The position numbers and the translations under genes are program-made. This document shows, piece by piece, positions 5,415-45,218 of a stretch of 64,000 nt of DNA (positions are counted from its first letter, which is position 1; each line of letters starts with the position of its first letter). A model generated the notes under the pieces. That model ran no database searches and had not been told where the DNA came from. It saw only the letters and a program-made list of their open reading frames with translations. Source of the DNA: a virus; the IMG/VR virus record IMGVR_UViG_3300044539_000240, one strand, 5' to 3'.

Positions 5415-5417
5415 TTT

Positions 5418-7007
5418 ATGAGTTCAATTTATGGATTCTTTACCGGGTCGCATAGTCCATCTATTGCATTAATTAGAGACGGTAAAATAACATTTTGTAT
5501 CGAGGAAGAGAGATTAACCCGAATAAAATCCGGTGATAATTACGATATTAATTGTGAATTATCATGTATTGAGGCGGAAAAATATACAGGTCTAAAAATA
5601 ACAGATGCCGATTACCGAATCTTTGCAAATCCAACACCGGACGAATTTGCCCGTAAAATTACCAACAATAATTATGAAAAAGTTAGTCACCATACCGCAC
5701 ACGCATATGGGGCTTACTACACCAGTGGAATGAAAGGTAAATCAATTACCATCACATACGATGGTGGAGGTGAAAGTACCGTAATGAAAGTTTATCTATG
5801 TAATAATGGAAAAATGACTTTAATCCAAAGTCATCCATTGGCTTCATTTGGTAGTCTTTCTCACGTTTGGGGATTCAGTACATCCTCGATGAGAGGATAT
5901 GACGAACATGGTGAGGGAATATGGAAAATGTGTAAAGATGAAGGTAAATTAATGGGTATGGGTCCAAATGGTCATTACGATGAGACAATTTATAATATGT
6001 TGTCCACTGTAATTAATTATAAGGATTTTAGATTTTACCCATCCGGGTCATCAAGTAAAACCATGTTTTTAGGTGACATGATGAAATCCAATGGATATTT
6101 CGATACTCAAGAAAAAATGGAAATCTATTCATTTAATTTACAAAAACGAACAGAAGACCTATTCCTAAAATTTATTGACGACTTACATAATTTATATCCT
6201 GAATATAAGCAATTATGCTTATCCGGAGGACTATTTGCCAATGTAAAATTAAATCAAAAACTCAACGAATTAGAATGGATTGACGAAATTTATATTTACC
6301 CACCAATGGGTGATGAAGGTTTGTCATTAGGAGCCTGTATCTATAAAGCTGTCGAATTGGGTGAGATTACTGAACCAATTGAACTAACTAATGTTTATTT
6401 TGGGAAGTCATACAATAATGATGAAATACAGGAAATCTCAAAAGATTATAGTTTTAAGAGAGAACCATATAATCCGAAAGATATCGCAAATTATATCAAT
6501 CAAGGAGGAATCGTTGGATGGTTTCAAAATGGTTCCGAATTCGGTCCAAGGTCTTTAGGAGCTCGAAGTATTTTAGTTAGACCAACCGAAATCTCAACAC
6601 ACAAATTATTAAATAAAAGATTAAATCGATATGATACAATGCCATTTGCACCAATTATATTAGAAGAATCATTTGACAATATTTTTATACCATCAAAATC
6701 AAAATACACATCTGAGTTTATGACATTATGTTACAACACAAAAGATGAGTGGATTGATAAGATACCTGCAGTTATACAAAAGTCAGATAAAACTGCTCGA
6801 CCCCAAATAGTTAAAAGGTCTAAAACACCTAAATTTTGGGAAATATTAAATGAATATTATATGTTATCAGGAATACCATTATTATTGAATACATCATTTA
6901 ATTCACACAATCAACCAATCATTGAAAACCCGGAACAAGCATTTGAGTCATTAAAACTTGGGGTCATTGATAAATTAATAATAGAAGATTATGTTTATTT
7001 CCCTTAA
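5418..7007 (+). CDS. carbamoyltransferase, NodU/CmcH family (copy 2, divergent paralog of 3750..5414)
   Basis: Same motifs: EEERLTRIKSGD, HHTAHAYGAYYTSG, GWFQNGSEFGPRSLGARSILVRP, LLNTSFN. Starts 4 nt after copy 1. Confidence 0.8.
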   Translation: MSSIYGFFTGSHSPSIALIRDGKITFCIEEERLTRIKSGDNYDINCELSCIEAEKYTGLKITDADYRIFANPTPDEFARKITNNNYEKVSHHTAHAYGAYYTSGMKGKSITITYDGGGESTVMKVYLCNNGKMTLIQSHPLASFGSLSHVWGFSTSSMRGYDEHGEGIWKMCKDEGKLMGMGPNGHYDETIYNMLSTVINYKDFRFYPSGSSSKTMFLGDMMKSNGYFDTQEKMEIYSFNLQKRTEDLFLKFIDDLHNLYPEYKQLCLSGGLFANVKLNQKLNELEWIDEIYIYPPMGDEGLSLGACIYKAVELGEITEPIELTNVYFGKSYNNDEIQEISKDYSFKREPYNPKDIANYINQGGIVGWFQNGSEFGPRSLGARSILVRPTEISTHKLLNKRLNRYDTMPFAPIILEESFDNIFIPSKSKYTSEFMTLCYNTKDEWIDKIPAVIQKSDKTARPQIVKRSKTPKFWEILNEYYMLSGIPLLLNTSFNSHNQPIIENPEQAFESLKLGVIDKLIIEDYVYFP

Positions 7008-13490: not shown

Positions 13491-14042
13491 TTGTACTTTA
13501 GCCGTATGAAAAAAATAATCTTAATATTATCGGTATGTTTCTTACTTTTTTCCTGTGAAGCGTATGTAACAGAAAAAAGTGATGTAACACTTAGTGGGAA
13601 ATATGTGGTTTCCAAATTAGACATTACTAACGTTGACCAAAATCAAACAAGAGATTCTTTATATCTTCTTGGGACAACGTATAACAACTCATCACTACCA
13701 AAACCATTTGATGTAATACCAATTAATCATTTTTACATTCATATGGATTATGCATCAATTAGAATGAAATTAGTAGGAGTTACTCAAGGTGGTCAAGACA
13801 TTTGGGGTTATGGTAATGCACCCAATGAAATTTTTTACAGAATCTTAAATAATAACTCTTATGACCTTGGATACCTACAATTTGATTACATCACGGACAA
13901 TGGTTCTTCTCGAAGAATTACATTTCACATTGAACATGACGGATATGAAAGTCTTCAGTTAAAGAGTGTTGGTGGTTGGTTTAATGGTAAGTACGGTGAA
14001 AAACAAGTTATGACAATGTTTTTAACAAGAGTGGGTCCTTAA
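13491..14042 (+). CDS. lipoprotein (183 aa)
   Basis: Signal peptide MKKIILILSVCFLLFSC with lipobox L-F-S-C. Confidence 0.55.
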   Translation: MYFSRMKKIILILSVCFLLFSCEAYVTEKSDVTLSGKYVVSKLDITNVDQNQTRDSLYLLGTTYNNSSLPKPFDVIPINHFYIHMDYASIRMKLVGVTQGGQDIWGYGNAPNEIFYRILNNNSYDLGYLQFDYITDNGSSRRITFHIEHDGYESLQLKSVGGWFNGKYGEKQVMTMFLTRVGP

Positions 14043-19592: not shown

Positions 19593-19875
19593 TATGAAGA
19601 AAATTGCGATTGTTATTGGGATTTTATTAGTAACGATTGGTTTAGTCGAAACAATTGATTTATCATTTTATCTGATGAATCGTCCGGACACATATCTATT
19701 CAATTTAGGTCTTGTATTGTTTGGATTACAATTATTAGGGTTTGCTGCTATAGGTGGTTTTATGTATGATTTAGTATCGAGATGGTCTAAAGATAAGGAA
19801 CCGGAAATAACAACCAAAGAACCTCAAAAACCAAAGAAGAAAAATAAAAATAACTTAAAACAAGAAAAAAAATGA
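19582..19875 (+). CDS. small membrane protein (2 TM) with Lys-rich tail; possible NfeD-like partner of the SPFH protein
   Basis: Two hydrophobic helices; stop overlaps start of 19872 (ATGA). Confidence 0.5.
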   Translation: MKNSMKKIAIVIGILLVTIGLVETIDLSFYLMNRPDTYLFNLGLVLFGLQLLGFAAIGGFMYDLVSRWSKDKEPEITTKEPQKPKKKNKNNLKQEKK

Positions 19876-20699
19876 GAAGAATTTTAGTAGCAGTAGGAAT
19901 TGTTGTATTACTTTTTACAATGGTAATGTCGTGTGAGAGAATCGATGCGGGTCACGTAGGTGTAAAAGTCGATATGTATGGAAGTGGTAAAGGGGTAAAC
20001 GATGTCACAGAATGTACGGGAGTAGTGTTTTATAACCCTATCACAACAAAAATTTATGAGTTCCCAACATTTATTCAACACAAAGAGTACAAAGATGAAA
20101 ATTCATTTGTCGTGAATAGTAAGGATGGTTCAGAATTTAGTGTTTCTCCAATTATGAACTATTCAGTTCAAAGAGAAAAAGTCCCTACAATATTCGCTAA
20201 ATACAGAAGAAGTTTGGAAGAAATTGAAGAAGGATTCTTAAAAACTGCTGTGTATGACGCATTCCGTTTAGCAACTAATAAGTATACCGCAGATGGATTA
20301 ATCGGAAATAGAGAAATTTTTGAGATTGAAGTTAGACGTTTGTTAGAAGCTCAATTACTTAAAGAAGGATTCGTAATCAATCAGTTCACATCTAATTTAG
20401 TTTATCCGGATTCATTCAAGAAAGCAATTAATGCTAAGAACAACGCGGTACAGTCGGCATTGATGGCGGAGAACAAAGTAAAACAGGCCGAGGCTGAGGC
20501 TAAAATTAAAGTGGCAACTGCTAATGGTAACGCAGAAGCATTATTGGCGAACGCAAGAGCCGAGGCGGAATCTAACAGATTAAGACAACAAACATTAACA
20601 CCAATGTTATTACAACAACAATGGATTGAGAAATGGAAAGGTAATGTTCCAACCACTCAGTTGGGAGCAAACACTCAAGTGTTGTACGGTCTAAAATAA
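19872..20699 (+). CDS. SPFH/band-7 (stomatin/prohibitin-like) membrane protein
   Basis: N-terminal TM helix then an SPFH-like domain and an Ala/Glu-rich coiled-coil tail (AEAEAKIKVATANGNAEALLANARAEAE). Confidence 0.55.
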   Translation: MRRILVAVGIVVLLFTMVMSCERIDAGHVGVKVDMYGSGKGVNDVTECTGVVFYNPITTKIYEFPTFIQHKEYKDENSFVVNSKDGSEFSVSPIMNYSVQREKVPTIFAKYRRSLEEIEEGFLKTAVYDAFRLATNKYTADGLIGNREIFEIEVRRLLEAQLLKEGFVINQFTSNLVYPDSFKKAINAKNNAVQSALMAENKVKQAEAEAKIKVATANGNAEALLANARAEAESNRLRQQTLTPMLLQQQWIEKWKGNVPTTQLGANTQVLYGLK

Positions 20700-26246: not shown

Positions 26247-26672
26247 CTATCGAAATGGAATTACAACACCGACTCCGTATCTAAAACCTTCCATGTAATT
26301 TACACCAACAGTGAAATCAAACCCTTTTTCAGTATTTGTAATAATTCTCAATGGGTAAATTTTAACCCATACATCCGGTTTAGTTTTAATTTCATCAATA
26401 TAAGTTTCAATAAATACACCCCCCATAACACTAACTTTGTGATTGGTTAAACTAATCCCAACACGATTCAAAATCGACATCGGTGTTGTGTAGATGTAAG
26501 GTTGTGGACGGGTCGTTGTGACATACCCACCAACATAATACCCAATTGGAGAGTAATTGCTGTTATAAGTTGCTACAATCGTGTTTTGGTCCGGTACATA
26601 CATTAAGTCCGCATCCTGAGAGAATCCCATAAATGGAATCAATAAAAATAAAAGTGAGGTTATTGTTTTCAT
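26247..26672 (-). CDS. small secreted protein, possibly an 8-strand outer-membrane beta-barrel (141 aa)
   Basis: Signal peptide MKTITSLLFLLIPFMGFSQ; alternating hydrophobic pattern; C-terminal ...VVIPFR. Confidence 0.45.
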   Translation of the reverse strand: MKTITSLLFLLIPFMGFSQDADLMYVPDQNTIVATYNSNYSPIGYYVGGYVTTTRPQPYIYTTPMSILNRVGISLTNHKVSVMGGVFIETYIDEIKTKPDVWVKIYPLRIITNTEKGFDFTVGVNYMEGFRYGVGVVIPFR

Positions 26673-28927: not shown

Positions 28928-29386
28928 TTATTGTTGTTTTAAACCACGATAATAGTTAATCATATTTTCACAATGTTTAATCAACCAATTTTCAACTAAA
29001 GGTATTTTTTTAAGGAAATCCAATTCATATTGATAACATAAAATTTCTTCATCCCTCTCATCTAAAAATATGTTATTATTCCTATAATATAAATGTTTTG
29101 ATTCATGAATTATTATGGCAGATAAATTATTGATATTACCTGATTGAATGTCTTGTTTAGATATCAATATAACATCATTACCTTCAGTGGTTGAGAACTT
29201 ATTATTCCAAAACCCTATTCGTTTACATTGTTTAATCACTATGTCGTACTTGGGTGAATCCACTTTTTTAATCACTTCCAAACTTTTCTCCACATTTTTT
29301 TTCCACCCTTCTCCAACATCATCAATGACTATTTGTGAAAACGATTGAGTGGTAAAAAACAACATTAATAATATGATAATTCTCAT
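28928..29386 (-). CDS. small secreted protein with HExxH motif (IIHESKHLYY); possible zinc metallopeptidase (152 aa)
   Basis: Signal peptide MRIIILLMLFFTTQSFSQ and HESKH motif. Confidence 0.4.
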   Translation of the reverse strand: MRIIILLMLFFTTQSFSQIVIDDVGEGWKKNVEKSLEVIKKVDSPKYDIVIKQCKRIGFWNNKFSTTEGNDVILISKQDIQSGNINNLSAIIIHESKHLYYRNNNIFLDERDEEILCYQYELDFLKKIPLVENWLIKHCENMINYYRGLKQQ

Positions 29387-29475
29387 GTTTTTTTTCTAAA
29401 TAAATAGTGGGTTTAGGGTGTCAAACTTTTATACGAATATTTATAGGTAATAAATTACCAAGATATTATTAAACT

Positions 29476-31359
29476 ATGAAAAAACTTTTTATGGTGCTGT
29501 CATTCCTTGTGATGACTTCACTGGGTTATTCCCAAATTTGTCCGACACCGACAACTACCGGAGTTTTTGTTACATTAGACGCAACTTATCAATTAGCACC
29601 GGCATCTGCTGGTAATACTGAAGTAGGTTTATGTTTTTTTAACAATACTACCGAATTGATTACGGCTGTTCAGTTTCGAGTGTTTTATGATACCTCAGCA
29701 TTCACATCAGTGTCTTCTGTCGTATCGTCAAATACATCGTTCCCCCAATATATTCAATTTCAGGATAGTCCTGCAAATGGATATGTTACGATTACTCTAA
29801 CTTATACAGGTAATGACTCGAATTTTGAATTATCAAATGGGTCATTTGTAAAATTAAATTTAGTACACTCAGCGAATTTTGCGAGTTTGTCGTCTGTTCA
29901 ACCCATGACATTTAGTGGTGTTCAAACATTCCCACAAACCGCAACAAAACAAAATGGTTCTGACTATACTTTAAATTTACAAAACTTTGGTGGAGCATTT
30001 TTACCTCAACTATTTTCGTTTAGTGGTACATTCACTAACGTAACAGGAACGGGGTCAAAACTAATTCCGGTTATTTTAGAGAAAAAATTAATGACATCTT
30101 CAACTTGGATTCAAGCGTCAACAACACAAACAAATAACGCTGGTGTTTTCACATTTACAGATGTACCACTAGACGTTACAAGTTATGACGTTCGTATTAG
30201 AGTAGATGGTGAATCACTATCAATAGCAAATATCATTTCAACATCTGACTCACAAAAAATCAACAGATTTGTTTTAGGTCAAGATACTCCGACAGGATTT
30301 GATTTTTATTCATCTGATGTTAATGGTGACAACAACATATCAATTTCTGATGTGTATGGTGTGTTTGGTAGAGTATCAGGAAGATTTAGTTCTTGGCCTA
30401 ACTCGGTTAAAGATGTTAAATTCTTCTCAGATTCAGAATACACTTCTATTAATGGTTCAACATCATCTTTACAATCTACAATTCCGGGTGTAACGAATCT
30501 TGTTTACAACATTTTACCGGGTACAACAACAGTTACTTTCTATGTGTTAGTTAAAGGAGATGCTAATGGTACAGGTTTTAATATGGCTCGTATGACACCA
30601 ATTGAAATTGTAAACCCGTTAAACGCACCATCAAATATTATTGATGTTACAACAACTTATGACAACCCAACATTACAAACCATCGAATTAAACTATCCAA
30701 GTTTAACGGTAAATGAAAATAGTAGAGTTGAGGTTCCTGTTCTTGTAAAAACAAATGGAATTCAATTAGGTTCTTTACAACTGGCATTAAATTACAATAG
30801 TAATCTATTAGATTTTACAGGTGTTAGAGCTGAGAATAAAGTTAGTGGATGGATAACTTATGTTAATACAAATGATAATATTGTTGAGTGGGGTGGCTAT
30901 GACCCAACAAAAAATACAAAATTATTAAATGACAACGAATTAGCTTTCACACTACAATTCACATCGAAAGAAATTCAAAGTCAATGGGGTGTAAGTCCTT
31001 TATATGTTACAAAAAAATTCTCAGGAAATTCAATCGCTCGAGATTTGAAAATAATACCTACAAATGGGATTATTCAAATCATGAGAGTTATGAAACCAAC
31101 CGATTTAGAATATATGGTGACATACCCTAATCCAACTGATAATGACATCACTGTCAAATTTACTGTAGAAAAAGAAGGTAATGTTTGGTTATCTTTATAT
31201 GATTTGGGTGGTAGAGAAATTCAAACAATCGTTAACACTGATTTACATTCAGGTGAACACAGATATAGTACAAATGTTGGTTACCTTCCTTCAGGAACTT
31301 ACATAGTTACTCTTAAAAAAGGTACGGAAATAGAATCTAATAAGATAATCCGTAAATAA
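29476..31359 (+). CDS. secreted protein with Por/T9SS C-terminal sorting domain (627 aa)
   Basis: Signal peptide; C-terminal approximately 80 aa YPNPTDNDITVKFTVEKEGNVWLSLYDLGGREIQTIVN...GTYIVTLKKGTEIESNKIIRK fits the type-A CTD pattern (TIGR04183-like); internal dockerin-like DVNGDNNISISD; TATTTATAGG box 37 nt upstream. Confidence 0.6.
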   Translation: MKKLFMVLSFLVMTSLGYSQICPTPTTTGVFVTLDATYQLAPASAGNTEVGLCFFNNTTELITAVQFRVFYDTSAFTSVSSVVSSNTSFPQYIQFQDSPANGYVTITLTYTGNDSNFELSNGSFVKLNLVHSANFASLSSVQPMTFSGVQTFPQTATKQNGSDYTLNLQNFGGAFLPQLFSFSGTFTNVTGTGSKLIPVILEKKLMTSSTWIQASTTQTNNAGVFTFTDVPLDVTSYDVRIRVDGESLSIANIISTSDSQKINRFVLGQDTPTGFDFYSSDVNGDNNISISDVYGVFGRVSGRFSSWPNSVKDVKFFSDSEYTSINGSTSSLQSTIPGVTNLVYNILPGTTTVTFYVLVKGDANGTGFNMARMTPIEIVNPLNAPSNIIDVTTTYDNPTLQTIELNYPSLTVNENSRVEVPVLVKTNGIQLGSLQLALNYNSNLLDFTGVRAENKVSGWITYVNTNDNIVEWGGYDPTKNTKLLNDNELAFTLQFTSKEIQSQWGVSPLYVTKKFSGNSIARDLKIIPTNGIIQIMRVMKPTDLEYMVTYPNPTDNDITVKFTVEKEGNVWLSLYDLGGREIQTIVNTDLHSGEHRYSTNVGYLPSGTYIVTLKKGTEIESNKIIRK

Positions 31360-31427
31360 TTTATGGTGTCACAATTTGTGACACCAAAGCCTATAAGAAG
31401 GAAATAAACAATTAAAATTAAATTAAA

Positions 31428-31769
31428 ATGTCAGAAGAAACACAAGAAACACAAAATGATGGTACTTGGTCAGGATTAAAGAAAACAATAATAGGTACTT
31501 TAACTACTGTTATTGGTGGTGGTGGTATATGGTTATCAACACAATTGTTTGGAGGTCATGGTGACGATAAAGAAGAAACAAAAACAGAACAAGTTGCACA
31601 ACCTGCAGCCGCACCTGTAGTTATCAATCTACAAAACAACAACACAAACCAACAAAAACAACAAAACAATGGTGGTGGTACTAACACAATTATCAGAGAA
31701 AAAGTTGTGGAAAAACCAGCAGCACAACCAGCACCTGCTAAACCAAAAACGGAAGAAGACCCTTGGTAA
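31428..31769 (+). CDS. membrane-anchored Pro/Ala/Gln-rich protein (113 aa)
   Basis: One TM helix IIGTLTTVIGGGGIWLSTQLFGG then low-complexity PAAAP/Q-N-rich region. Confidence 0.5.
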   Translation: MSEETQETQNDGTWSGLKKTIIGTLTTVIGGGGIWLSTQLFGGHGDDKEETKTEQVAQPAAAPVVINLQNNNTNQQKQQNNGGGTNTIIREKVVEKPAAQPAPAKPKTEEDPW

Positions 31770-31770
31770 T

Positions 31771-32487
31771 ATGAAAAAAATAGTATTACTATTACCTTTT
31801 TTACTTTTTTCGTGTATTGGATTATCCCAAACTATTGGAACCATAAAAACTGAGGACTATAAAGCAGATTTTGAAAAAAAACAATCTTTAGATGTTGTCA
31901 GTGATTATAATGGTGACATTGTAATACCAATCCAAATATTAAAAATTGGTATCAACGATGAGGTATATGAGATGTATCCTGAACTAAAAGATAAACGAGT
32001 AGGTCTTGGGGTTGCGAATATTGTATTAGAGTATTTAGAATCAACAGATAGATTTAAATTCACTGAGGATAAAGCGGAAATCAAAAACAAAATGATTGCC
32101 CAAGATAAGGCGTCTGATAAAGGAATTTCAAGTAATAAAATAGAAGTTAAAGGTAATGTAATTTTAGCTAACTATTTTGTTTACATAGAAGTTTACGATT
32201 TCAGTGTCTCAGAAGACGAAGTGATTAAAGGAAGTGAAGGTGCTAAAATAACTCAAACAACTCGTTTAGGTTTACAGATTAGATTTGTCGATGCCCAAAC
32301 CGGTGAAGTTATAACTGGTAGTGGGTTAGGTGAGTCTAACACAGTGAAAACATCATCGTTATTAGATGATGTTGATGAAATTAAATTTAACCAATCAACA
32401 ATTGGTATATCAACAAAAAAATCGTTAGAAACCGCATCTTCAAGAGTTGTTTCTAAATTAATTAAAAAAGGGGTTTTTAAAGAATAA
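31771..32487 (+). CDS. lipoprotein. Start corrected to MKKIVLLLPFLLFSC.
   Basis: Lipobox L-F-S-C. ATG lies 2 nt after the stop of the preceding gene. The longer ORF upstream overlaps that gene. Confidence 0.55.
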   Translation: MKKIVLLLPFLLFSCIGLSQTIGTIKTEDYKADFEKKQSLDVVSDYNGDIVIPIQILKIGINDEVYEMYPELKDKRVGLGVANIVLEYLESTDRFKFTEDKAEIKNKMIAQDKASDKGISSNKIEVKGNVILANYFVYIEVYDFSVSEDEVIKGSEGAKITQTTRLGLQIRFVDAQTGEVITGSGLGESNTVKTSSLLDDVDEIKFNQSTIGISTKKSLETASSRVVSKLIKKGVFKE

Positions 32488-33944
32488 TGAAGACGATATT
32501 CTCATTTTTATTTCTTATATTTACAACCATGGTATTAGGTCAAGGGTTTACATATTCGTATGCAGACCCTTGCACTTCCAAAACCAAGGAAATTTTTATT
32601 CCAAATCCATCACAAAGTGTGGTGTTATCATATAATGGGTCAGTACAAAGTTTTACATATGCTCAACTTCAATCAGGTGCAATGGAACAATGGATAAATG
32701 AGGTAAATTCTCAAAATCCTTCAGGTCCTTGTAGTGGTGTAGGTCTTCAACTGAACACATCGGTTAACGCAACAATTGCTGCCAATAACATACAAGTATT
32801 AACTACTGTATTAACCTCAATGTCTTCAATATCATCCGCAGGTATGTCAAATGTGGAAGGTATTATTCAAGCAGATGAAAAAGTATCATCTAATAATGAA
32901 AGACAGAAGGATAAAACCAAAATAGAAAATAATGCAACAATTAATATTAACGGAGGAAGTACAACAACTACTAACACAAATTCAGGAACTTCGCAAAGCG
33001 GGGGAAATCAAAACAATGGTTCAGGAGTTGGAAATGGAACTAATCCGCAAGGAGGAACGACTTCAAATCCAAATAACCCAACTACAACAGGAGGTCAGTC
33101 GTCTCAGTCACCTGTAACTTCCGGTAATAACACATCACCAAATACTAATAACTCCACAACACAAAATACTAATAACTCCTCGGGTGTAAGTAATATCACA
33201 GGAGGGATTAATTCTGTCAAATTAGACAATACTGAAAAATCAGATAAAGAAAAACTTGATGACGCACAATCCTCATCATCAACAACCTCTTCATCAACTA
33301 AAAGTAAAGTCGCTGCAGTTAAAAAAGGTAGTTTAATGATGACAGGAGATATTGTAGTAATAGGAAGCGCCGCAGGAACTGACCCTTCTCAAATAAGAGT
33401 AAATACGAGTATCATTTCATCAAACACAAAAAACACATTTGCAAAAGGAGCGTTGGTTAATTATACAAGTCAAGTTAACAACACGAATATCACATTATTT
33501 GCATCATATCGTTATAAAAAATTAACAACTATTATTGCAAATTCATCTATGATGAATTTTGATAAAGATTTTTTTAACACAACCTCTGTAATGGAGTCGT
33601 ACCAAATAAAAAAAATCACCACAACCGTGGGGGTTAACTACACAACAGGGAATTTAGGGGAATCTAAATTTCAAAGTATCTCTACATTAGGTGGAGCATT
33701 TGGTAGTTTTAATGTTAATAAAAAAATGGGTATGACAACAATGTTTGTTATTGTATATTCCCCTTTTGTATATTATTACGAGGGAATATGGTATCAATCA
33801 GGTCTATTAGCAGTTCCATTTGTTGCTGTCGATTATAAATTAACTAAAAAATTTAAACTAAACCTAAGTTTTAGTGGGGTACAACAAATAAACGACCAAC
33901 CACTAAACTACCAAGTATTACTTGGAGCTAAAGCATTTTTATAA
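32487..33944 (+). CDS. secreted protein with long S/T/N/G-rich low-complexity linker and C-terminal beta-rich domain (485 aa)
   Basis: Signal peptide MKTIFSFLFLIFTTMVLGQ. The C-terminal approximately 180 aa has alternating hydrophobic residues and ends ...LGAKAFL (outer-membrane-barrel-like). Confidence 0.5.
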   Translation: MKTIFSFLFLIFTTMVLGQGFTYSYADPCTSKTKEIFIPNPSQSVVLSYNGSVQSFTYAQLQSGAMEQWINEVNSQNPSGPCSGVGLQLNTSVNATIAANNIQVLTTVLTSMSSISSAGMSNVEGIIQADEKVSSNNERQKDKTKIENNATININGGSTTTTNTNSGTSQSGGNQNNGSGVGNGTNPQGGTTSNPNNPTTTGGQSSQSPVTSGNNTSPNTNNSTTQNTNNSSGVSNITGGINSVKLDNTEKSDKEKLDDAQSSSSTTSSSTKSKVAAVKKGSLMMTGDIVVIGSAAGTDPSQIRVNTSIISSNTKNTFAKGALVNYTSQVNNTNITLFASYRYKKLTTIIANSSMMNFDKDFFNTTSVMESYQIKKITTTVGVNYTTGNLGESKFQSISTLGGAFGSFNVNKKMGMTTMFVIVYSPFVYYYEGIWYQSGLLAVPFVAVDYKLTKKFKLNLSFSGVQQINDQPLNYQVLLGAKAFL

Positions 33945-33946
33945 CT

Positions 33947-34732
33947 ATGAAAAAATTATTAATACTAATACCTTTATTAATTTGTGGGAATTTATTCGGT
34001 CAACCCGCACCTCCTCCATCTAGTTCAACACCAAGTTCTACTGAACTATTTGGAAATTCCCAAAATAATATAATTGGAACTCAATCTAAATCATTTGGGG
34101 GTGGTTCTATAATTAAACCTAACCCTATGTTAACATCTGCCGATTTCGCATTAATTCAAAATCCAACATATGAAGATGGATGGAGACATGGTACAAGTTT
34201 AGGATGGAGTAAAATAAATGAAGGTAAAGGGTTTGGGGTTAATGCGGTTTTAACATTTGATTTAACACAACAATCCTATTCTTCTTACTATAAAAATAAA
34301 AACTTGTATTACCATTTTAATTTTGGTAAGATGGGTACTACGATTAATTTAGGGGGTAGTGTTACTAAAATGTTTTTAACTGATAAAATAAATTTTGGAG
34401 TTCAAATAGGTTCTACAGTGCTTGAAGACCATAAATACGTTTATTTTATATTAGTCCCTTATACGGTATTAATGGCAAATAAAGAAATTAAAATATCCAA
34501 CAAAATTAAATGGACTCCAGAAACATTTATAACAATATGTTCACCATATTACGATTTAGGTTTGGGAACATTAGGAACTTCAACAACATTCAATTCAGTG
34601 GTCGGAAATTCTTTATCGGTAAACATATCAAAATCGTTTAAAATGAATACTAATTGGAGAATGAACATAAACACAACACCGAAATTTGGTATTATGAATA
34701 ATATCTTAATAGGTGGAAATTTAGATTTTTAA
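33947..34732 (+). CDS. secreted putative outer-membrane beta-barrel protein (PorP/SprF-like?) (261 aa)
   Basis: Signal peptide MKKLLILIPLLICGNLFGQ; terminal Phe (…GGNLDF), typical of OMP barrels. The PorP/SprF assignment is speculative. Confidence 0.4.
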   Translation: MKKLLILIPLLICGNLFGQPAPPPSSSTPSSTELFGNSQNNIIGTQSKSFGGGSIIKPNPMLTSADFALIQNPTYEDGWRHGTSLGWSKINEGKGFGVNAVLTFDLTQQSYSSYYKNKNLYYHFNFGKMGTTINLGGSVTKMFLTDKINFGVQIGSTVLEDHKYVYFILVPYTVLMANKEIKISNKIKWTPETFITICSPYYDLGLGTLGTSTTFNSVVGNSLSVNISKSFKMNTNWRMNINTTPKFGIMNNILIGGNLDF

Positions 34733-34734
34733 AT

Positions 34735-35181
34735 ATGAAAAAATTATTAATTACATTATTGATGTTAGGTTCACTAACATCTTTCTCTCAAAATTGTTAT
34801 ACAGTTAAAGAAGTTAAAAACAATGGAGATATCGAAGGTGTTAACCCAAAAAGATTCACTTTAGGAGTTAAACAAATTACTGAAGAAATATTATCAGTTA
34901 ACAATACAATATGCGAAGACGGTAAACCTGTTTCAGTATTAATAGAAAGTATTGAAGCTCCGTCAACCGGTATATCATTAGGGCCATTTGAAAGAAAAAG
35001 AAAAAAAACAATAGTTACTTTAATTATCACTAAAGATGGTAAAGAATATAAAGGTGTTGGTGATTCAAATACTGATGTAAAATCAACATTTATAGAATTA
35101 CAGGATGAAAATCTCCCTTTTGAAAAATCGGCATTTTCTTCGGCATTAAAAAAAGCAATACAAAACGCATTAGAACTATAA
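34735..35181 (+). CDS. small secreted protein (148 aa)
   Basis: Signal peptide MKKLLITLLMLGSLTSFSQ. Confidence 0.5.
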   Translation: MKKLLITLLMLGSLTSFSQNCYTVKEVKNNGDIEGVNPKRFTLGVKQITEEILSVNNTICEDGKPVSVLIESIEAPSTGISLGPFERKRKKTIVTLIITKDGKEYKGVGDSNTDVKSTFIELQDENLPFEKSAFSSALKKAIQNALEL

Positions 35182-36156
35182 ATGACAAAGTTATTCTACA
35201 TATTACTTTTATTTTCAACAATCTCTTGGAGTCAAAATTTTACTTACTCGGGTTATATCTATAACTCGGTAGGTGGTGGTATTCAAAATATGGAAGTAAA
35301 GTTGTATAAAAGAACAACACCAACTTTAAATGGGTTTACCTCTCAAAATAATTATAACGGACATTCATATTATCGTTCAACCGGTTCTATGACTTGGACG
35401 GATGCAAGACAGGCGTGTTTAAACATGGGAGGTCATTTAGTTACTGTAACTTCACCCGCTGAGAATAACTTTATATTTAATCTATGGCCAAATGGTTGGA
35501 TTGGATTAACAGATGAAGTGTCAGAAGGTACTTGGAGATGGGTTACAAATGAACCCTTTTCTTGGTCTAATTGGAATGGTGGGGAACCAAATAACGCAGG
35601 TAATGAAGATTATATTCAATTTGTTGGTGGTGGTAAATGGAATGATTTACCTAATATTTCATTACCATATGTTTTGGAGTTTGAGTATATTGTAACATTT
35701 ACGGAATGGGCATACGTAAAAAGTGTTTACACAGATTCCAATGGGAGATACTCAATTAATGAAGCTTCAAACCCTTCAGTTGAATGGTATTTACAAATTA
35801 GTACCCCATCCACTCCACCTTCATTAGAAAATATTGACGCACAACAATCAAACACCAAATCAATATCAAGAACATTAACATCATTAGATTATTATAGATA
35901 TGATGTTAATAATGATGGTAGAATTAATATATCAGATTCATATTACATTTTTATGAAAAAATCAGGTAGATTTTCTTCTTGGACAAATTCAATTCCTGAC
36001 TCAAGAATTTTAATACCATCTCAATATTCAATACTAAATTCTTCAACTAATGATTTGAGAAATTCTTATCCCGGTGTTCAAAGTTTTACCATTAATTCCC
36101 CAATAAATGGTGGGTCCTCAAATTTTTATTTAATAAGAACGGGTAAAAAGGACTAA
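35182..36156 (+). CDS. secreted C-type lectin domain protein (EPN/WND, mannose-type) with dockerin-like C-terminal module
   Basis: WTDARQACLNMGGHLVTVTSPAENNFIF..WIGLTD..GTWRWV..WSNWNGGEPNN..EDYIQF..GKWNDL is a canonical CTLD with an EPN sugar/Ca site and WND. C-terminal DVNNDGRINISDSYYIF...SGRFSSWTNS module shared with 29476. Confidence 0.75.
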   Translation: MTKLFYILLLFSTISWSQNFTYSGYIYNSVGGGIQNMEVKLYKRTTPTLNGFTSQNNYNGHSYYRSTGSMTWTDARQACLNMGGHLVTVTSPAENNFIFNLWPNGWIGLTDEVSEGTWRWVTNEPFSWSNWNGGEPNNAGNEDYIQFVGGGKWNDLPNISLPYVLEFEYIVTFTEWAYVKSVYTDSNGRYSINEASNPSVEWYLQISTPSTPPSLENIDAQQSNTKSISRTLTSLDYYRYDVNNDGRINISDSYYIFMKKSGRFSSWTNSIPDSRILIPSQYSILNSSTNDLRNSYPGVQSFTINSPINGGSSNFYLIRTGKKD

Positions 36157-36193
36157 AGTTAAAGTATTTATAGTAATAAAAACGTAAATTACT

Positions 36194-37015
36194 ATGATAC
36201 TAAAAAATGGCTCAAAAGGCGAAGAAGTTAAAAAACTTCAATCAAAATTAGGAACAACACCCGATGGTGTTTTTGGACCTGGAACTGAGAAATTGGTTAA
36301 AGAATGGCAAACTAAAAATGGATTAACATCTGACGGGATTGTTGGTGATGGAACTTGGAAAAAGATGTTTCCGGGGGAAATCATTAAAGAAGATGTAGTT
36401 ATTCCATCGGGAGGACCATTCAAATTAGAAAAATTAAAAGGACACATTCCGGAATCAGTAATTGCTCAAATACCTGACACTGCAAAAAAATTCAACATCA
36501 CTAATCCATTAAGATTAGCTCATTTCTTGGCACAATGTGGTCATGAATCAGGTGGATTTAAAGCAGTTTCTGAAAATGTAAATTATTCTGCGGATGGTCT
36601 TAAAAAAATCTTCCCAAAATACTTTCCGGGCAACTTAGCAGAATCTTACGCAAGAAACCCTGAAAAAATTGCATCAAAAGTATATGGTGGAAGAATGGGT
36701 AATGGTGATGAATCAACAAAAGATGGGTTTAAATTCAGAGGTAGAGGTTATATTCAATTAACAGGAAAACAAAACTATACAAACTTCGCGAAATTTATCG
36801 GTGAAGATACTGTATCAAATCCTGATTTGGTTGCAACAAAATATCCATTAGCATCTGCGGCATTCTTCTTTGACTCAAACAAACTTTGGTCTATTTGTGA
36901 TAAAGGAGCTGACGACGCAACAGTAACGGCAGTAACTAAAAGAGTGAATGGTGGAACTATTGGTTTACCTGATAGAATTAAACATTTTAAAGAATATTAT
37001 AATTTATTAAAATAA
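36194..37015 (+). CDS. endolysin-like peptidoglycan hydrolase: PG_binding_1 domain plus GH19 (chitinase/lysozyme-like) catalytic domain
   Basis: N-term GSKGEEVKKLQSKLGTTPDGVFGPGTEKLVKEWQTKNGLTSDGIVGDGTWKKM; GH19 motifs LAHFLAQCGHESGG, FRGRGYIQLTGKQNY. GTATTTATAG box 30 nt upstream. Confidence 0.8.
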   Translation: MILKNGSKGEEVKKLQSKLGTTPDGVFGPGTEKLVKEWQTKNGLTSDGIVGDGTWKKMFPGEIIKEDVVIPSGGPFKLEKLKGHIPESVIAQIPDTAKKFNITNPLRLAHFLAQCGHESGGFKAVSENVNYSADGLKKIFPKYFPGNLAESYARNPEKIASKVYGGRMGNGDESTKDGFKFRGRGYIQLTGKQNYTNFAKFIGEDTVSNPDLVATKYPLASAAFFFDSNKLWSICDKGADDATVTAVTKRVNGGTIGLPDRIKHFKEYYNLLK

Positions 37016-38235: not shown

Positions 38236-38430
38236 ATGTGGAAAGTTTATTTATTGATGTTTATTGTTGTTCTTGTTATATCCATTTTATGGGTTAACGC
38301 AATTACAAATATGCAAAAAAATCACCCTGATTATAAAGGAGAAGATTGGTTAGATTGGAATGAAGATGACAAATTAGATATTAATCTTTGGGATAAAGAT
38401 GAAGATAGGAAAGATTATGATGAAGATTAA
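38236..38430 (+). CDS. small membrane protein with acidic tail (64 aa). A 31-aa TM mini-ORF at 38138..38233 precedes it.
   Basis: Hydrophobic helix LLMFIVVLVISILWVNAI. Confidence 0.4.
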   Translation: MWKVYLLMFIVVLVISILWVNAITNMQKNHPDYKGEDWLDWNEDDKLDINLWDKDEDRKDYDED

Positions 38431-44576: not shown

Positions 44577-45218
44577 ATGAAAAACATTATTTTAACTTTA
44601 GGATTTATTCTGATGTCTTCACTATTATTTAGCCAAGATACTATTAGAATTAAACACACTAATTATACAACCGTATTTAGTAAAACTAAACATTACCCGG
44701 TCTTAGTTGAATGGTGGACAACAAAGTCTATGGTGACTTGTAAAACACCTCTCAAACGAAAAGATAACTTTAAACCGGACCCTCAATTACCAAAAGAAAC
44801 AGATTTATTAAAAGATTATATTGGTAGTGGTACCGACCGAGGTCATATGATGCCAGCAGCAGATAATCTTTGTCAAACACCACAAGTTCAAGATGAGTGT
44901 TTCTACTTTTCAAATATGTCGGCACAATATCATTCGTTAAATGCTGGTGATTGGAAATCATTAGAAACATTAACTCGTAAGTTAGCTACCGAACAAGATA
45001 GTATTAAAGTTTGGTGTGGGAATGTTGGTGAGATTAAGAGAATTGGTAGAGTATCGGTTCCTAAACAATGTTGGAAAGTTGTTTACATAAAAAAAAGTAA
45101 CACATACTACTCATATCTTTTTGATAACACTACAAATAAACCAGATGGTATTGAAAATAATTTAGTTAAAATTGAAGTCATTGAGAAGTTAACCGGATTT
45201 AAATTTAATGTAAAATAA
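44577..45218 (+). CDS. secreted DNA/RNA non-specific endonuclease (Serratia NucA/NUC1 family)
   Basis: Signal peptide MKNIILTLGFILMSSLLFSQ; active-site motif TDRGHMMPAADN (DRGH with catalytic His) and downstream Asn/Glu residues. Confidence 0.7.
   Translation: MKNIILTLGFILMSSLLFSQDTIRIKHTNYTTVFSKTKHYPVLVEWWTTKSMVTCKTPLKRKDNFKPDPQLPKETDLLKDYIGSGTDRGHMMPAADNLCQTPQVQDECFYFSNMSAQYHSLNAGDWKSLETLTRKLATEQDSIKVWCGNVGEIKRIGRVSVPKQCWKVVYIKKSNTYYSYLFDNTTNKPDGIENNLVKIEVIEKLTGFKFNVK

What the first reader, a model, noticed from the sequence alone, without database searches (positions are those of the whole stretch)
28928..37015. 7.5 kb secretome block: T9SS-sorted protein, lipoproteins, beta-barrel-like proteins, a canonical EPN/WND C-type lectin and a GH19 peptidoglycan hydrolase
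Eight consecutive plus-strand genes between 29476 and 36156 have a Sec signal peptide or a TM anchor (31428). 29476 ends in a Por/T9SS C-terminal sorting domain. 33947 (…LDF) ends with a terminal Phe like outer-membrane barrels, and 32487 (…AFL) is similar but ends in Leu, so its barrel assignment is weaker. 35182 is a textbook Ca-dependent C-type lectin (EPN plus WND, predicting mannose- or glucose-type specificity), which is rare outside eukaryotes. The block ends with a PG-binding GH19 endolysin-like enzyme, and a small secreted HExxH protein lies just upstream on the minus strand. For a virus this is unexpected. These could be host-surface remodelling or superinfection-exclusion factors routed through the host type IX secretion system, or lectin-bearing receptor-binding proteins.
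Basis: partly seen in the sequence, partly recalled or inferred. Interest (0 to 1): 0.65.

Follow-up and report, generated by a model that had tools for sequence, protein, structure and literature searches.

The report
Phage-encoded envelope and surface-display operon
A large virus of Flavobacterium-type bacteria carries a tightly packed, widely conserved set of genes that send about eight proteins into its host's cell envelope, including a secretion-tagged scaffold and a sugar-binding lectin that probably docks on it, so the virus appears to rebuild the surface of the cell it infects.

Summary
Seven consecutive plus-strand genes (29476-36156), plus one on the minus strand, start with a signal peptide or a membrane anchor. 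Gene 29476 ends in a type A T9SS sorting domain above the curated cutoff. Gene 35182 is a C-type lectin with EPN/WND. Gene 36194 is a PG-binding GH19 endolysin.

- The core B-C-D-E-G-H is a conserved operon, found in at least 582 viral contigs but in only one cultured phage species (Flavobacterium phage immuto, where it is unannotated).
- B also carries a cohesin domain and a dockerin-like module. The lectin H shares that module, and its sugar-binding head is swapped between relatives.
- C is an inner-membrane anchor with a proline-rich spacer and an invariant terminal Trp.

Three claims weaken. At most one protein is a lipoprotein. The barrel claim for E and F could not be tested. F, the endolysin and the HExxH protein are not core.

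Best reading: a non-structural module that displays lectins on the infected cell through the host T9SS and a cohesin-dockerin contact, alongside an envelope sub-complex of unknown role. Phage T9SS cargo and phage CsgG genes are already published. This combination is not.

The parts
28928..29386 (-). A: small secreted HExxH...E protein (152 aa), a candidate mini zinc metallopeptidase. Accessory, mobile member of the module.
   Evidence: Signal peptide followed by Q. H94, E95, H98 and E121 are invariant in 17 relatives. No Pfam family; the best PDB match is a neutral metalloprotease at E 0.5. Present in 50 of 87 loci, on either side of the core.
29476..31359 (+). B: 627-aa scaffold. Signal peptide, N-domain, beta-sandwich, dockerin-like module, cohesin, T9SS type A C-terminal domain.
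   Evidence: The gene is fused in 62 loci and split into two signal-peptide-bearing proteins in 22.
30196..30399 (+). Dockerin-like segment of B (residues 241-308), including the Ca-loop-like DVNGDNNISISD.
   Evidence: B-family profile against ScaB dockerin 4uyp_B: E 5e-4, covering 3-71 of 75 residues. Homologous to H residues 161-324 (BLASTP 4e-20; hhalign 99.9%). Below the Pfam Dockerin_1 cutoff.
30661..31074 (+). Cohesin domain of B (residues 396-533).
   Evidence: Pfam Cohesin 29.7 bits against a cutoff of 24.1. Family profile against cohesin structures 6kg8 and 6kgc: E 1.8e-5.
31123..31356 (+). T9SS type A C-terminal sorting domain of B (residues 550-627).
   Evidence: TIGR04183 38.4 bits (cutoff 23); PF18962 39.9 bits (cutoff 27). 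17 of 17 family representatives match. The family profile hits CTD structures 8glk, 8glj and 5jvk.
31364..31386 (.). Perfect 10-bp hairpin between B and C. It may set B apart from the downstream genes in transcription.
   Evidence: There is no U tract on the + strand, so the function is not shown.
31428..31769 (+). C: 113-aa type II inner-membrane protein. Conserved N-terminus, Gly-rich TM segment, Pro/Ala/Glu/Lys-rich TonB-like spacer, invariant C-terminal Trp.
   Evidence: 35 representatives all end in E-[DES]-[PS]-W or similar. Present in 85 of 87 loci.
31771..32487 (+). D: 238-aa CsgG-fold protein, the most conserved gene of the module. A possible lipoprotein (LFSC) in this genome.
32487..33944 (+). 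E: 485-aa orphan protein. Signal peptide, Cys-pair N-domain (FxYxYxDPCT...PC), N/S/T/G/Q-rich spacer of variable length, all-beta C-domain.
   Evidence: invariant D27, P28, C29, T30, C82. No Pfam or PDB family. AlphaFold failed. Present in 86 of 87 loci.
33947..34732 (+). F: 261-aa secreted orphan protein ending in ...NLDF. A rare accessory gene.
   Evidence: 6 of 87 loci. Present or absent among near-identical genomes. No family hit.
34735..35181 (+). G: 148-aa secreted protein, a small paralogue of D with a CsgG/LpoB-type fold.
   Evidence: hhalign G family against D family: 95.5%, E 1.4e-8, 117 columns. Present in 77 of 87 loci.
35182..36156 (+). H: 324-aa secreted lectin adaptor. CTLD (residues 56-165; EPN 135-137, WND 153-155) followed by the beta-sandwich and dockerin-like module shared with B (161-324; Ca loop 241-252).
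   Evidence: The head is exchanged for LamG, PA14, GEVED or other domains in relatives.
36194..37015 (+). I: cytoplasmic PG_binding_1 + GH19 endolysin. A neighbour, not a core member.
   Evidence: Its immuto orthologue lies elsewhere, next to a holin.

Best explanation
The block is a conserved, non-structural operon of large T4-like or jumbo phages of Flavobacteriia. It sends its products into the envelope of the infected cell.

SHOWN
- All products carry Bacteroidetes-style signal peptides or a membrane anchor.
- The genes from C to H abut or overlap.
- B-C-D-E-G-H stay together, in nearly the same order, across lineages that share as little as 25-45% identity in most of these proteins.
- B carries a cohesin domain and a type A T9SS sorting domain.
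- B and H share a roughly 160-residue module containing a dockerin-like Ca-loop segment.
- The head of H is a glycan-binding domain that is swapped between relatives.
- D has a CsgG fold, and G is its smaller paralogue.

INFERRED MECHANISM
- After Sec export, the host T9SS moves B across the outer membrane by its C-terminal domain and keeps it at the cell surface.
- The B cohesin binds the dockerin-like module of H, and possibly that of another B molecule.
- The infected cell therefore becomes coated with Ca-dependent lectins whose specificity differs between phage lineages.
- C (inner-membrane rod with a terminal Trp), D and G (CsgG/LptE-like ring or plug proteins) and E (disulfide-bonded N-domain, spacer, all-beta C-domain) form an envelope-spanning partner complex. 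It would anchor or assemble this coat, or help H, which has no T9SS tag, reach it.

LIKELY PAYOFF
Masking of surface glycans, so that other phages or the phage's own progeny do not adsorb to an already infected cell. Less likely: sticking infected cells to neighbouring cells or particles.
For: EXPORT SIGNALS
- Signal peptides and Q-rule pattern: with PMC5837995 and PMC10653852.
- T9SS domain above the curated cutoffs, and present in 17 of 17 family representatives.

COHESIN AND DOCKERIN-LIKE MODULE
- Cohesin: Pfam above cutoff, plus profile hits to solved cohesins at E 1.8e-5.
- Dockerin-like segment: B-family profile against ScaB dockerin at E 5e-4 over the whole 75-residue chain. Pfam Dockerin_1 at about 0.004 in 2 of 20 H representatives.
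- The B and H modules are homologous: 4e-20 and hhalign 99.9%.
- Gene fusion versus split. In 22 immuto-like loci the cohesin+CTD half is a separate protein with its own signal peptide, while the N-domain+dockerin-like half and the lectin are two further proteins. This is the layout of an anchoring scaffoldin with two docking subunits.

LECTIN HEAD
- Heads found in 20 representatives: Lectin_C 13, Laminin_G_3 4, GEVED 2, PA14 1, Ig_7 1.
- EPN/WND kept in 60 of 60 lectin-bearing orthologues.

D AND G
- D has the CsgG fold.
- G is related to D.

LINKAGE AND CONTEXT
- Co-occurrence and synteny in 87 loci, out of at least 582 viral contigs.
- Location among replication and nucleotide genes, not structural genes, in immuto.
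- Tight gene spacing.
Against: - No experiment or structure shows any of the proposed contacts.
- The dockerin assignment is borderline. Pfam scores 14.3 bits against a cutoff of 22.9 in H. The combined B+H module profile reaches only E 0.09 against the dockerin structure. The first Ca loop is degenerate.
- H has no T9SS tag, so its route across the outer membrane is unknown.
- The hairpins of D are short and acidic, so D is unlikely to be a CsgG-type pore.
- The topology of E is unknown because the model failed.
- The biological payoff is a guess from analogy.
- The endolysin lies next to the module in most loci, which leaves room for a role in lysis.
Confidence: 0.45

Rival explanations
1. 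Lysis accessory complex. C (inner-membrane anchor) and D (outer-membrane lipoprotein), perhaps with E and G, act as a spanin-like or pore-like device. It would breach or depolarise the envelope at the end of infection, working with the neighbouring endolysin. A similar role has been proposed for the CsgG/CsgF genes of phage Melnitz.
For: - A type II membrane protein gene is followed directly by a gene with a lipobox (LFSC).
- An endolysin lies within 10 kb in 55 of 87 loci, and immediately downstream here.
- In the distant locus L092 the C slot holds a TM protein with a coiled-coil, like an i-spanin, followed by a D protein with the lipobox LLTAC.
- A lysis-timing role has been proposed for phage CsgG (PMC9004378).
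- Spanins are poorly known in Bacteroidota phages (own knowledge).
Against: - The periplasmic part of C here is Pro/Ala/Gln-rich and has no coiled-coil.
- Many D orthologues, including immuto's, have no Cys and cannot be lipid-anchored.
- D is 238 aa with a CsgG fold, unlike o-spanins.
- In immuto the orthologous endolysin and holin sit 30 kb away.
- The idea does not explain the T9SS scaffold or the swappable lectin heads, which are always linked to C-D-E.
Confidence: 0.17
2. Curli-like (type VIII) export of a fibre or sticky coat. D would be a CsgG-type outer-membrane channel that secretes unfolded substrates: the N/Q/S/T/G-rich region of E and/or the disulfide-free lectin H. The result would be an adhesive layer that holds host cells together ('sibling capture').
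For: - CsgG is the best structural match for D.
- D is remotely homologous to the CsgG of pelagimyophage HTVC008M.
- E has a roughly 170-residue N/Q/S/T/G-rich segment.
- The CTLD of H has a single Cys, so it lacks disulfides that would block passage through a narrow pore.
- The sibling-capture idea is published for pelagimyophages (PMC7029224).
Against: - The regions of D equivalent to the CsgG transmembrane hairpins are short and acidic (SVSEDEVIKGSEGAK; LLDDVDE), and the second hairpin is missing from the model.
- D itself does not reach Pfam CsgG.
- No gene resembles CsgF, CsgE or curlin repeats.
- The spacer of E is not conserved in composition. It is short and acidic in L092.
- D-like domains are also fused to kinases and caspases in bacteria, which points to a general periplasmic module.
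Confidence: 0.12
3. Virion proteins. B and H are lectin-bearing receptor-binding or decoration proteins of the phage particle.
For: - Carbohydrate-binding heads that vary between relatives are typical of receptor-binding proteins.
- Ig-like and beta-sandwich domains are common on virions (own knowledge).
Against: - The proteins have cleavable Sec signal peptides of the host's Q-rule type, and B has a T9SS sorting domain. Tailed-phage particles assemble in the cytoplasm.
- In immuto the block lies among replication and nucleotide genes, far from the structural modules at 80-160 kb.
- No PHROG structural family is hit.
Confidence: 0.04
4. No unit at all: a chance pile-up of unrelated 'moron' genes for secreted proteins.
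For: - A, F and I do come and go or move around.
- The phage encodes other secreted proteins elsewhere in the window.
Against: - B, C, D and E co-occur in about 85 of 87 loci, with G in 77 and H-type proteins in 85. The order is kept down to 25-45% identity.
- Start and stop codons abut from C to H.
- B and H share a module, and D and G are paralogues.
- The chance of such a run is 1e-4 or less.
Confidence: 0.02

Closest known systems
Phage-encoded T9SS cargo proteins ('Cryophage', Bellas et al. 2020, PMC7468147)
   Same: A phage of a Bacteroidota host encodes proteins with a type A T9SS C-terminal domain. The cargoes include carbohydrate-related domains (PA14, glycoside hydrolases) that vary between phage variants. 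Host-surface change or superinfection effects were proposed.
   Different: There the cargoes are separate enzymes, each with its own CTD. Here only one protein (B) has the CTD. It carries a cohesin rather than an enzyme, and the variable glycan-binding protein (H) has no CTD but shares a dockerin-like module with B. The whole set is locked to a C-D-E-G gene group.
Partial curli (CsgG/CsgF) operon of T4-like marine myophages (pelagimyophages HTVC008M, PMC7029224; Methylophilales phage Melnitz, PMC9004378)
   Same: A T4-like aquatic myophage carries a CsgG-fold gene in a small operon of exported proteins, placed outside the structural module. The function is unknown. The D family is remotely homologous to HTVC008M CsgG (hhalign 93.8%).
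   Different: HTVC008M CsgG is a bona fide CsgG, 40% identical to the E. coli protein, and comes with CsgF and curlin-like repeat proteins. D does not reach Pfam CsgG, lacks amphipathic transmembrane hairpins, and has no CsgF or curlin partner. It comes instead with a second small paralogue (G), a TonB-like anchor (C) and the T9SS/lectin pair.
Cellulosome-type cohesin-dockerin assembly (anchoring scaffoldin plus dockerin-bearing subunits, e.g. Acetivibrio/Clostridium Sca proteins)
   Same: One cohesin-bearing protein has a cell-surface anchoring signal, and other secreted proteins carry a dockerin-like Ca-loop module with variable functional heads. The split and fused forms of B mirror the adaptor/anchor scaffoldin logic.
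   Different: The host is Gram-negative. Anchoring is by a T9SS C-terminal domain instead of SLH or sortase. The heads are lectins, not enzymes. The dockerin is atypical, with a degenerate first loop and a score below the Pfam cutoff. The genes are encoded by a virus. Binding is not shown.
Outer-membrane partners with a CsgG/LptE-type fold (LptE-LptD, PelC-PelB, PqiC, TraT)
Phage receptor-masking and superinfection-exclusion envelope proteins (T5 Llp, lambda-like Cor, TraT-like proteins; own knowledge)
   Same: Early, non-structural, signal-peptide-bearing phage proteins that act at the host outer membrane to block further adsorption.
   Different: Those are single small proteins that bind one receptor. 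This is a module of six or more genes with a secretion-system tag and lectin domains. An exclusion phenotype has not been tested.

Membership tests
T9SS type A cargo (TIGR04183 / PF18962) | C-terminal sorting domain scoring above the curated cutoff | tested here: met
   B scores 38.4 bits (cutoff 23) and 39.9 bits (cutoff 27). 17 of 17 family representatives match. The family profile hits solved CTDs 8glk, 8glj and 5jvk.
T9SS type A cargo (TIGR04183 / PF18962) | N-terminal Sec signal peptide for the first export step | tested here: met
   MKKLFMVLSFLVMTSLGYS|Q, found with a heuristic scan and showing the Q-rule pattern. SignalP itself was not available.
T9SS type A cargo (TIGR04183 / PF18962) | Secretion depends on a host T9SS | not testable with these tools
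   The only cultured relative infects Flavobacterium sp. LMO8. That Flavobacterium has a T9SS is established knowledge, not tested here.
C-type lectin domain (PF00059) | Domain HMM above the gathering score | tested here: met
   60.4 bits against 22.6. PDB hits down to 1.8e-23 against DEC-205, mannose receptor, DC-SIGN and langerin.
C-type lectin domain (PF00059) | Ca2+/sugar site: EPN, a downstream E/N, and WND | tested here: met
   GGEPNNAGNEDY...KWND. EPN and WND are kept in 60 of 60 orthologues.
C-type lectin domain (PF00059) | Two conserved disulfides (four Cys) of the canonical CTLD | tested here: not met
   There is one Cys in the domain, here and in most orthologues.
C-type lectin domain (PF00059) | Ca-dependent binding of mannose/glucose-type sugars | not testable with these tools
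   Needs recombinant protein and a glycan array.
Cohesin (PF00963) | Domain HMM above the gathering score, and similarity to solved cohesins | tested here: met
   29.7 bits against 24.1. B-family profile against 6kg8 and 6kgc: E 1.8e-5 over 138 positions.
Dockerin type I (PF00404) | Domain HMM above the gathering score | tested here: not met
   H scores 14.3 bits against 22.9. Only 2 of 20 H representatives reach E about 0.004.
Dockerin type I (PF00404) | Duplicated Ca-binding loop-helix segments | tested here: inconclusive
   The second loop, DVN[GN]D.xIxISD plus helix, is canonical. The first is reduced to ..sDAQk[iv]N..vLG. Profile hits to ScaB dockerin 4uyp_B: E 5e-4 with B only and 0.09 with B+H.
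Dockerin type I (PF00404) | Binds a cohesin | not testable with these tools
   Needs a pull-down or ITC experiment, or a reliable complex prediction.
CsgG / type VIII secretion channel (PF03783) | CsgG protomer fold | tested here: met
CsgG / type VIII secretion channel (PF03783) | Family HMM above the gathering score | tested here: not met
   D gives no hit at E 0.1 or better. 14 of 33 more distant relatives do hit, the best at 3.7e-23.
CsgG / type VIII secretion channel (PF03783) | Two amphipathic hairpins per protomer that build the transmembrane barrel | tested here: not met
   The model has three long strands, not four. The hairpin tips are acidic (SVSEDEVIKGSEGAK; SSLLDDVDE) across the family. 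This is judged from the sequence and a monomer model only.
CsgG / type VIII secretion channel (PF03783) | Lipoprotein anchor | tested here: inconclusive
   LFSC is present in this genome. About half of the phage orthologues have no Cys, while most bacterial relatives have a G-C lipobox.
CsgG / type VIII secretion channel (PF03783) | Partner genes csgF, csgE and csgA/B | tested here: not met
   No module gene matches the CsgF or curlin-like proteins of HTVC008M. No Pfam hits.
Two-component spanin | i-spanin: type II TM protein with a coiled-coil periplasmic domain | tested here: not met
   C has the TM anchor, but its periplasmic part is a Pro/Ala/Gln/Glu/Lys-rich spacer. Only the distant locus L092 has a coiled-coil in this slot.
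Two-component spanin | o-spanin: small outer-membrane lipoprotein encoded next to or within the i-spanin gene | tested here: not met
   D is adjacent, but it is 238 aa, has a CsgG fold, and is often without a lipobox.
Outer-membrane beta-barrel protein (E C-domain, F) | Barrel fold, or membership of an OMP family | tested here: inconclusive
   No Pfam or PDB family. The AlphaFold model of E is unusable, pLDDT 31.7. The amphipathic-strand signal (z 2.6-2.8) is no higher than for the soluble protein H.
Outer-membrane beta-barrel protein (E C-domain, F) | C-terminal beta-signal ending in an aromatic residue | tested here: inconclusive
   F ends in ...NL[DK]F in 5 of 5. E ends in L, F, I or ...VGQ depending on the lineage.
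GH19 phage endolysin | PG-binding and GH19 catalytic domains, and a phage endolysin family match | tested here: met
   PF01471 46 bits, PF00182 38.2 bits, phrog_181 5.3e-67. There is no signal peptide, so the protein is cytoplasmic until holin action.
Gluzincin-type zinc metallopeptidase (A) | HExxH plus a third-ligand Glu about 20-25 residues downstream | tested here: met
   H94, E95, H98 and E121 are invariant in 17 sequences.
Gluzincin-type zinc metallopeptidase (A) | Match to a curated peptidase family or structure | tested here: not met
   No Pfam or NCBIfam hit. The best PDB match is E 0.5.

The most novel reading that the evidence does not exclude
A virus builds its own surface organelle on a Bacteroidota cell. 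It would be a cellulosome-like, Ca-dependent cohesin-dockerin lattice, exported and anchored through the host T9SS, carrying interchangeable lectin heads. It would be tied to a phage-made trans-envelope complex: a TonB-like rod with a terminal Trp, two repurposed CsgG-fold rings, and an orphan outer-membrane protein. Lineage-specific lectin heads would then give the phage a programmable way to mask or grab particular glycans, for exclusion of competitors or capture of new hosts.
Probability: 0.3. Interest if true: 0.8.

Novelty: new variant of a known kind. Interest (0 to 1): 0.62.

Why it matters
Flavobacteriia are the main degraders of algal polysaccharides in lakes and oceans, and their large phages are almost unstudied.

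**Abundance.** This module is common. There are 5,457 D-type proteins in the 90%-identity protein collection, and at least 582 IMG/VR contigs carry it. Yet in the only cultured carrier it is annotated as hypothetical proteins.

**If the reading is right.** It would be the first case of a virus using cohesin-dockerin logic, and of one T9SS tag serving a multi-protein display. That would show how phages reprogram the glycan-facing surface of a cell during infection. Possible consequences are superinfection exclusion, aggregation and particle attachment, which bear on carbon flux.

**Link to an open question.** It also ties in with the unexplained CsgG genes of SAR11 and OM43 myophages. A CsgG-fold envelope module may be a recurrent but divergent feature of aquatic T4-like phages.

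**Testability.** Phage immuto and its Flavobacterium host are in culture, so the idea can be tested directly.

Tried and rejected
**Searches that found nothing**
1. Megablast of the 10-kb region against 50,697 phage records: no hit. Only protein-level searches found the immuto relatives.
2. D alone against the PDB by sequence, then the D-family profile against the PDB: no CsgG hit. The link came from Pfam hits of distant relatives and from fold comparison.
3. Profile or Pfam searches for E, F and A: nothing significant.
4. tblastn of a bacterial CsgG-caspase fusion against phages: no match.
5. The genome-collection scan found only two loci. Both are phage contigs binned into MAGs, so no bacterial version of the module was found. 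Look-ups of distant D homologues returned only very short contigs.
6. No paper was found that discusses the immuto lectin or cohesin genes.

The shallow alignment (at least 68% identity) gave pLDDT 31.7, which is unusable. No fold search was run on it.
8. Fold search against afdb50 was unavailable.

**Tests that were inconclusive or negative**
9. A home-made amphipathic beta-strand score did not separate E and F from soluble proteins.
10. F against the E C-domain: hhalign 14.5%, so homology is not established.
11. B N-domain against B cohesin: not significant, so a second cohesin is not shown.
12. A Bacteroidetes-type promoter motif (TTTG...TAnnTTTG) is not enriched in the window and is absent upstream of B. 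The sigma-70 scan was at chance level. Timing of expression therefore could not be inferred.

**Ideas considered and rejected**
13. Virion proteins.
14. A chance cluster.
15. A canonical spanin pair.
16. A canonical curli system.
The reasons are given under the rival explanations and the membership tests.

Full report
**1. What is in the sequence**

The region holds nine genes:
- A, 28928-29386, minus strand, 152 aa
- B, 29476-31359, 627 aa
- C, 31428-31769, 113 aa
- D, 31771-32487, 238 aa. The signal-peptide-bearing start is the internal MKKIVLLL, not the longer ORF from 31669.
- E, 32487-33944, 485 aa
- F, 33947-34732, 261 aa
- G, 34735-35181, 148 aa
- H, 35182-36156, 324 aa
- I, 36194-37015, 273 aa

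From C to H the stop and start codons abut or overlap. A 68-bp gap with a perfect 10-bp hairpin separates B from C.

A simple signal-peptide scan of all ORFs in the window picks out A, B, D, E, F, G and H. C has one N-terminal TM segment. In all seven signal peptides the hydrophobic core is followed by [S/G]-Q. This is the 'Q-rule' of signal peptidase I substrates in Bacteroidetes (PMC5837995, PMC10653852). So the proteins are adapted to export in a Bacteroidota host.

With 14-16 such proteins among 70-100 genes, a run of eight adjacent ones is expected in 1e-4 or less of shuffles.

**2. Domain assignments**

*B.* Pfam Cohesin scores 29.7 bits (cutoff 24.1). Por_Secre_tail scores 39.9 bits (cutoff 27). 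TIGR04183, the T9SS type A sorting domain, scores 38.4 bits (cutoff 23).

*H.* Lectin_C scores 60.4 bits. The domain matches the CRDs of DEC-205, mannose receptor, DC-SIGN and langerin down to E 1.8e-23. EPN is at residues 135-137 and WND at 153-155. There is only one Cys, so the canonical disulfides are missing.

*I.* PG_binding_1 plus GH19, and PHROG 181 'endolysin' at 5e-67. There is no signal peptide.

*A, C, D, E, F, G.* None hits any curated family directly.

**3. Genomic context**

The window has about 31% GC. It carries phage-type genes: RNA ligase, thymidylate synthase, carbamoyltransferases and a metallophosphoesterase.

The only annotated relatives among 50,697 phage records are the three Flavobacterium phage vB_FspM_immuto isolates. 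These are 160-kb T4-like myoviruses whose host is Flavobacterium sp. LMO8 from the Baltic Sea.

Only about 20 window genes have immuto homologues, yet the block is among them:

| Window gene | Immuto gene | Identity |
|---|---|---|
| H | gp013 | 60% |
| B | gp014 + gp015 | 34% |
| C | gp016 | 66% (N-terminal part) |
| D | gp017 | 74% |
| E | gp018 | 35% |
| G | gp019 | 48% |

In immuto these genes lie between a nuclease and thioredoxin/queuosine genes, far from the structural modules.

A and F have no immuto homologue. The immuto orthologue of endolysin I lies 30 kb away, next to a holin.

**4. How widespread and how tightly linked**

- D has 5,457 hits in the 90%-identity protein collection, many of them near-identical and on contigs up to 222 kb. 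It has only 252 cluster representatives at 50% identity.
- IMG/VR holds at least 582 contigs with a D relative.
- In the 87 loci examined the counts are: D 87, E 86, B 85, C 85, an H-type protein 85 (66 of them with a lectin head), G 77, I within the locus (up to 10 kb either side of D) 55, A 50, F 6.
- The order is B-C-D-E-(F)-G-H or B-C-D-E-H-(F)-G. A and I change side and strand.
- F is present or absent among genomes whose D proteins are identical.
- The two hits in the genome collection are phage contigs binned into MAGs.

The unit is therefore B-C-D-E-G-H. A is a frequent satellite, F is a rare one, and I is a neighbour.

**5. B and H: a scaffold and adaptor pair**

B residues 197-364 and H residues 161-324 are homologous (BLASTP 4e-20; family-level hhalign 99.9%, E 3e-33).

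A profile of 17 B representatives hits three kinds of solved structure:
- cohesins 6kg8 and 6kgc, E 1.8e-5, positions 396-533
- the ScaB dockerin 4uyp_B, E 5e-4, positions 241-308, covering residues 3-71 of 75
- T9SS C-terminal domains 5jvk, 8glk and 8glj, positions 546-626

All 17 representatives hit TIGR04183.

The dockerin call is borderline:
- It is below the Pfam cutoff.
- 2 of 20 H representatives reach about 0.004.
- The combined B+H module profile reaches only E 0.09.
- The alignment shows one canonical DVNxDxxIxISD loop-helix, preceded by a degenerate first segment.

In 22 of 84 loci B is split. The cohesin+CTD half becomes a separate 243-aa protein with its own signal peptide. The N-domain+dockerin-like half becomes another signal-peptide-bearing protein. 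That is the arrangement expected if the dockerin-like module binds the cohesin.

H heads vary among 20 representatives: Lectin_C in 13, Laminin_G_3 in 4, GEVED in 2, PA14 in 1 and Ig_7 in 1. One further head is unassigned. The C-terminal module stays constant. Wherever the lectin is present, EPN/WND is kept (60 of 60).

**6. D and G**

An alignment of 33 D relatives gave an AlphaFold model with pLDDT 80.9.
- Foldseek puts CsgG first (E 5.5e-8, TM 0.5-0.57).
- 14 of the 33 relatives hit Pfam CsgG, the best at 3.7e-23.
- JGI labels many D proteins 'CsgG'.
- The best viral structural match is a 'CsgG' of an uncultured phage.
- The D profile matches the CsgG of pelagiphage HTVC008M at 93.8% probability.

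Three points argue against a pore. D itself does not reach the Pfam model. The model has three long strands, not four. The hairpin tips are acidic across the family. I therefore do not file D as a type VIII channel.

Lipid anchoring is not conserved. This genome has LFSC, others have LLSC, GLASC or FAC, and about half have no Cys.

Bacterial D-like domains occur fused to caspase or Ser/Thr-kinase domains. That points to a general periplasmic module.

G is a smaller paralogue of D (hhalign 95.5%, E 1.4e-8).

**7. C, E, F and A**

*C.* It has a very conserved N-terminus (MSEETN..TWSGLKKT) and a Gly-rich TM segment. A Pro/Ala/Glu/Lys-rich spacer resembles the TonB rod. All 35 representatives end in ...E-[DES]-[PS]-W or similar.

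*E.* The N-domain has invariant Y23, D27, P28, C29, T30 and C82. The N/S/T/G/Q-rich spacer varies in length even between near-identical genomes. The conserved C-domain is about 200 residues. The low-confidence model predicts it as all-beta, but no reliable fold was obtained.

*F.* It has no relatives outside this module. Any link to the E C-domain is weak.

*A.* It keeps HExxH plus a Glu 23 residues downstream.

In a distant marine version (L092) the D protein is 39% identical. The C slot holds a TM protein with a coiled-coil. It is followed by D (with a lipobox), E (short acidic spacer, ending GANF) and G.

**8. Interpretation**

The data establish a host-envelope-directed, non-virion operon.

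The most economical mechanism has four steps:
1. Sec exports all products.
2. The host T9SS carries B to the cell surface.
3. The B cohesin holds the dockerin-like module of H, and possibly of other B molecules.
4. The cell is thereby decorated with lineage-specific glycan-binding heads.

C, D, G and E would form an envelope-spanning partner complex whose job is not resolved: anchoring, assembly, or a route for H. The payoff is inferred from analogy with phage exclusion proteins. It would be receptor or glycan masking against superinfection or against loss of progeny on infected cells. Adhesion is the alternative.

Two rivals remain open:
- A lysis or spanin-like role for C-D(-E-G). The nearby endolysin, the L092 coiled-coil protein and the Melnitz proposal favour it. 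The missing coiled-coil, the unconserved lipobox and the immuto arrangement count against it.
- A curli-like export of a sticky coat. The polar hairpins and the absence of CsgF or curlin partners count against it.

Virion proteins and a chance cluster are essentially excluded.

**9. Comparison with published work**

- Phage T9SS cargo has been reported once, as 'unique', in Cryophage (PMC7468147).
- Q-rule secreted proteins are known in Porphyromonas phages (PMC10367356).
- CsgG/CsgF operons of unknown function are known in pelagimyophages and Melnitz (PMC7029224, PMC9004378).
- I found no paper describing a phage cohesin/dockerin-like pair, a lectin adaptor sharing a module with a T9SS scaffold, or this six-gene module.

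It is best rated as a new variant of known kinds, namely phage-encoded secreted and envelope modules. The function is open, and a cultured system exists in which to test it.

Noticed in passing
window 44577-45218 (+); L001 9935-10513: A secreted EndoG/NUC1-type nuclease with the DRGH motif and a signal peptide ending in S|Q. Its immuto homologue gp012 (31% identity), also with a signal peptide, lies directly upstream of the lectin gene. An exported nuclease may therefore travel with the module in some lineages.
   Followed up: partly
window 2244-2705 (-): A second lysin-like gene: 153 aa, 42% identical to immuto 'endolysin' gp236, with an N-terminal hydrophobic segment that could be a signal peptide or a SAR anchor.
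   Followed up: no
window 38236-38430 (+): A 64-aa protein with one N-terminal TM segment and a very acidic, charged tail. It looks like a holin or antiholin. It lies 1.2 kb downstream of endolysin I, in the same relative position as immuto gp233, just before the metallophosphoesterase.
   Followed up: partly
window 31364-31386: A perfect 10-bp stem with a 3-nt loop (TGGTGTCACA-ATT-TGTGACACCA), immediately after the stop codon of B and 40 bp before C. There is no U tract on the coding strand. It could be a terminator, an attenuator or a processing site that sets the B : C-H ratio.
   Followed up: no
window 33947-34732; loci L005 vs L006-L008: Gene F is an insertion/deletion polymorphism among genomes whose D protein is 100% identical. 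E also varies from 471 to 514 aa in these genomes through its low-complexity spacer.
   Followed up: yes
L009 6635-6994; L010 6295-6660: Some relatives carry an extra 119-121-aa membrane protein (…MLQQMQANRW…DYWFNSEDRDKM…) inside the module, near C. It hits no Pfam family and has no counterpart in the window block.
   Followed up: partly
L092 (3-kb marine metagenome contig): A distant version of the C-D-E-G part. A 38-aa TM peptide and a TM protein with a coiled-coil (i-spanin-like) precede a lipobox-bearing D, a short-spacer E ending in GANF, and G. This is the best lead for a link to lysis.
   Followed up: partly
L009 (CAIWBA010000291.1, 254 kb) and L010 (RFPL01000028.1): Both are phage contigs carrying the module, but they are deposited inside MAGs labelled 'uncultured Bacteroidetes' and 'Sphingomonadaceae'. 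The second is probably a binning error and should not be read as a host assignment.
   Followed up: partly
window 26247-26672 (-), 13506-14042 (+), 58962-59450 (-), 19872-20699 (+): More exported proteins elsewhere in the window: one further signal-peptide-plus-Q protein and three with good lipoboxes (LLFSC, LSSC, VMSC). The phage's secretome is larger than this block.
   Followed up: no
window 3750-7007 (+): Two tandem Nol-like carbamoyltransferase genes (PHROG 1601, E 2e-104 and 6e-88).
   Followed up: no
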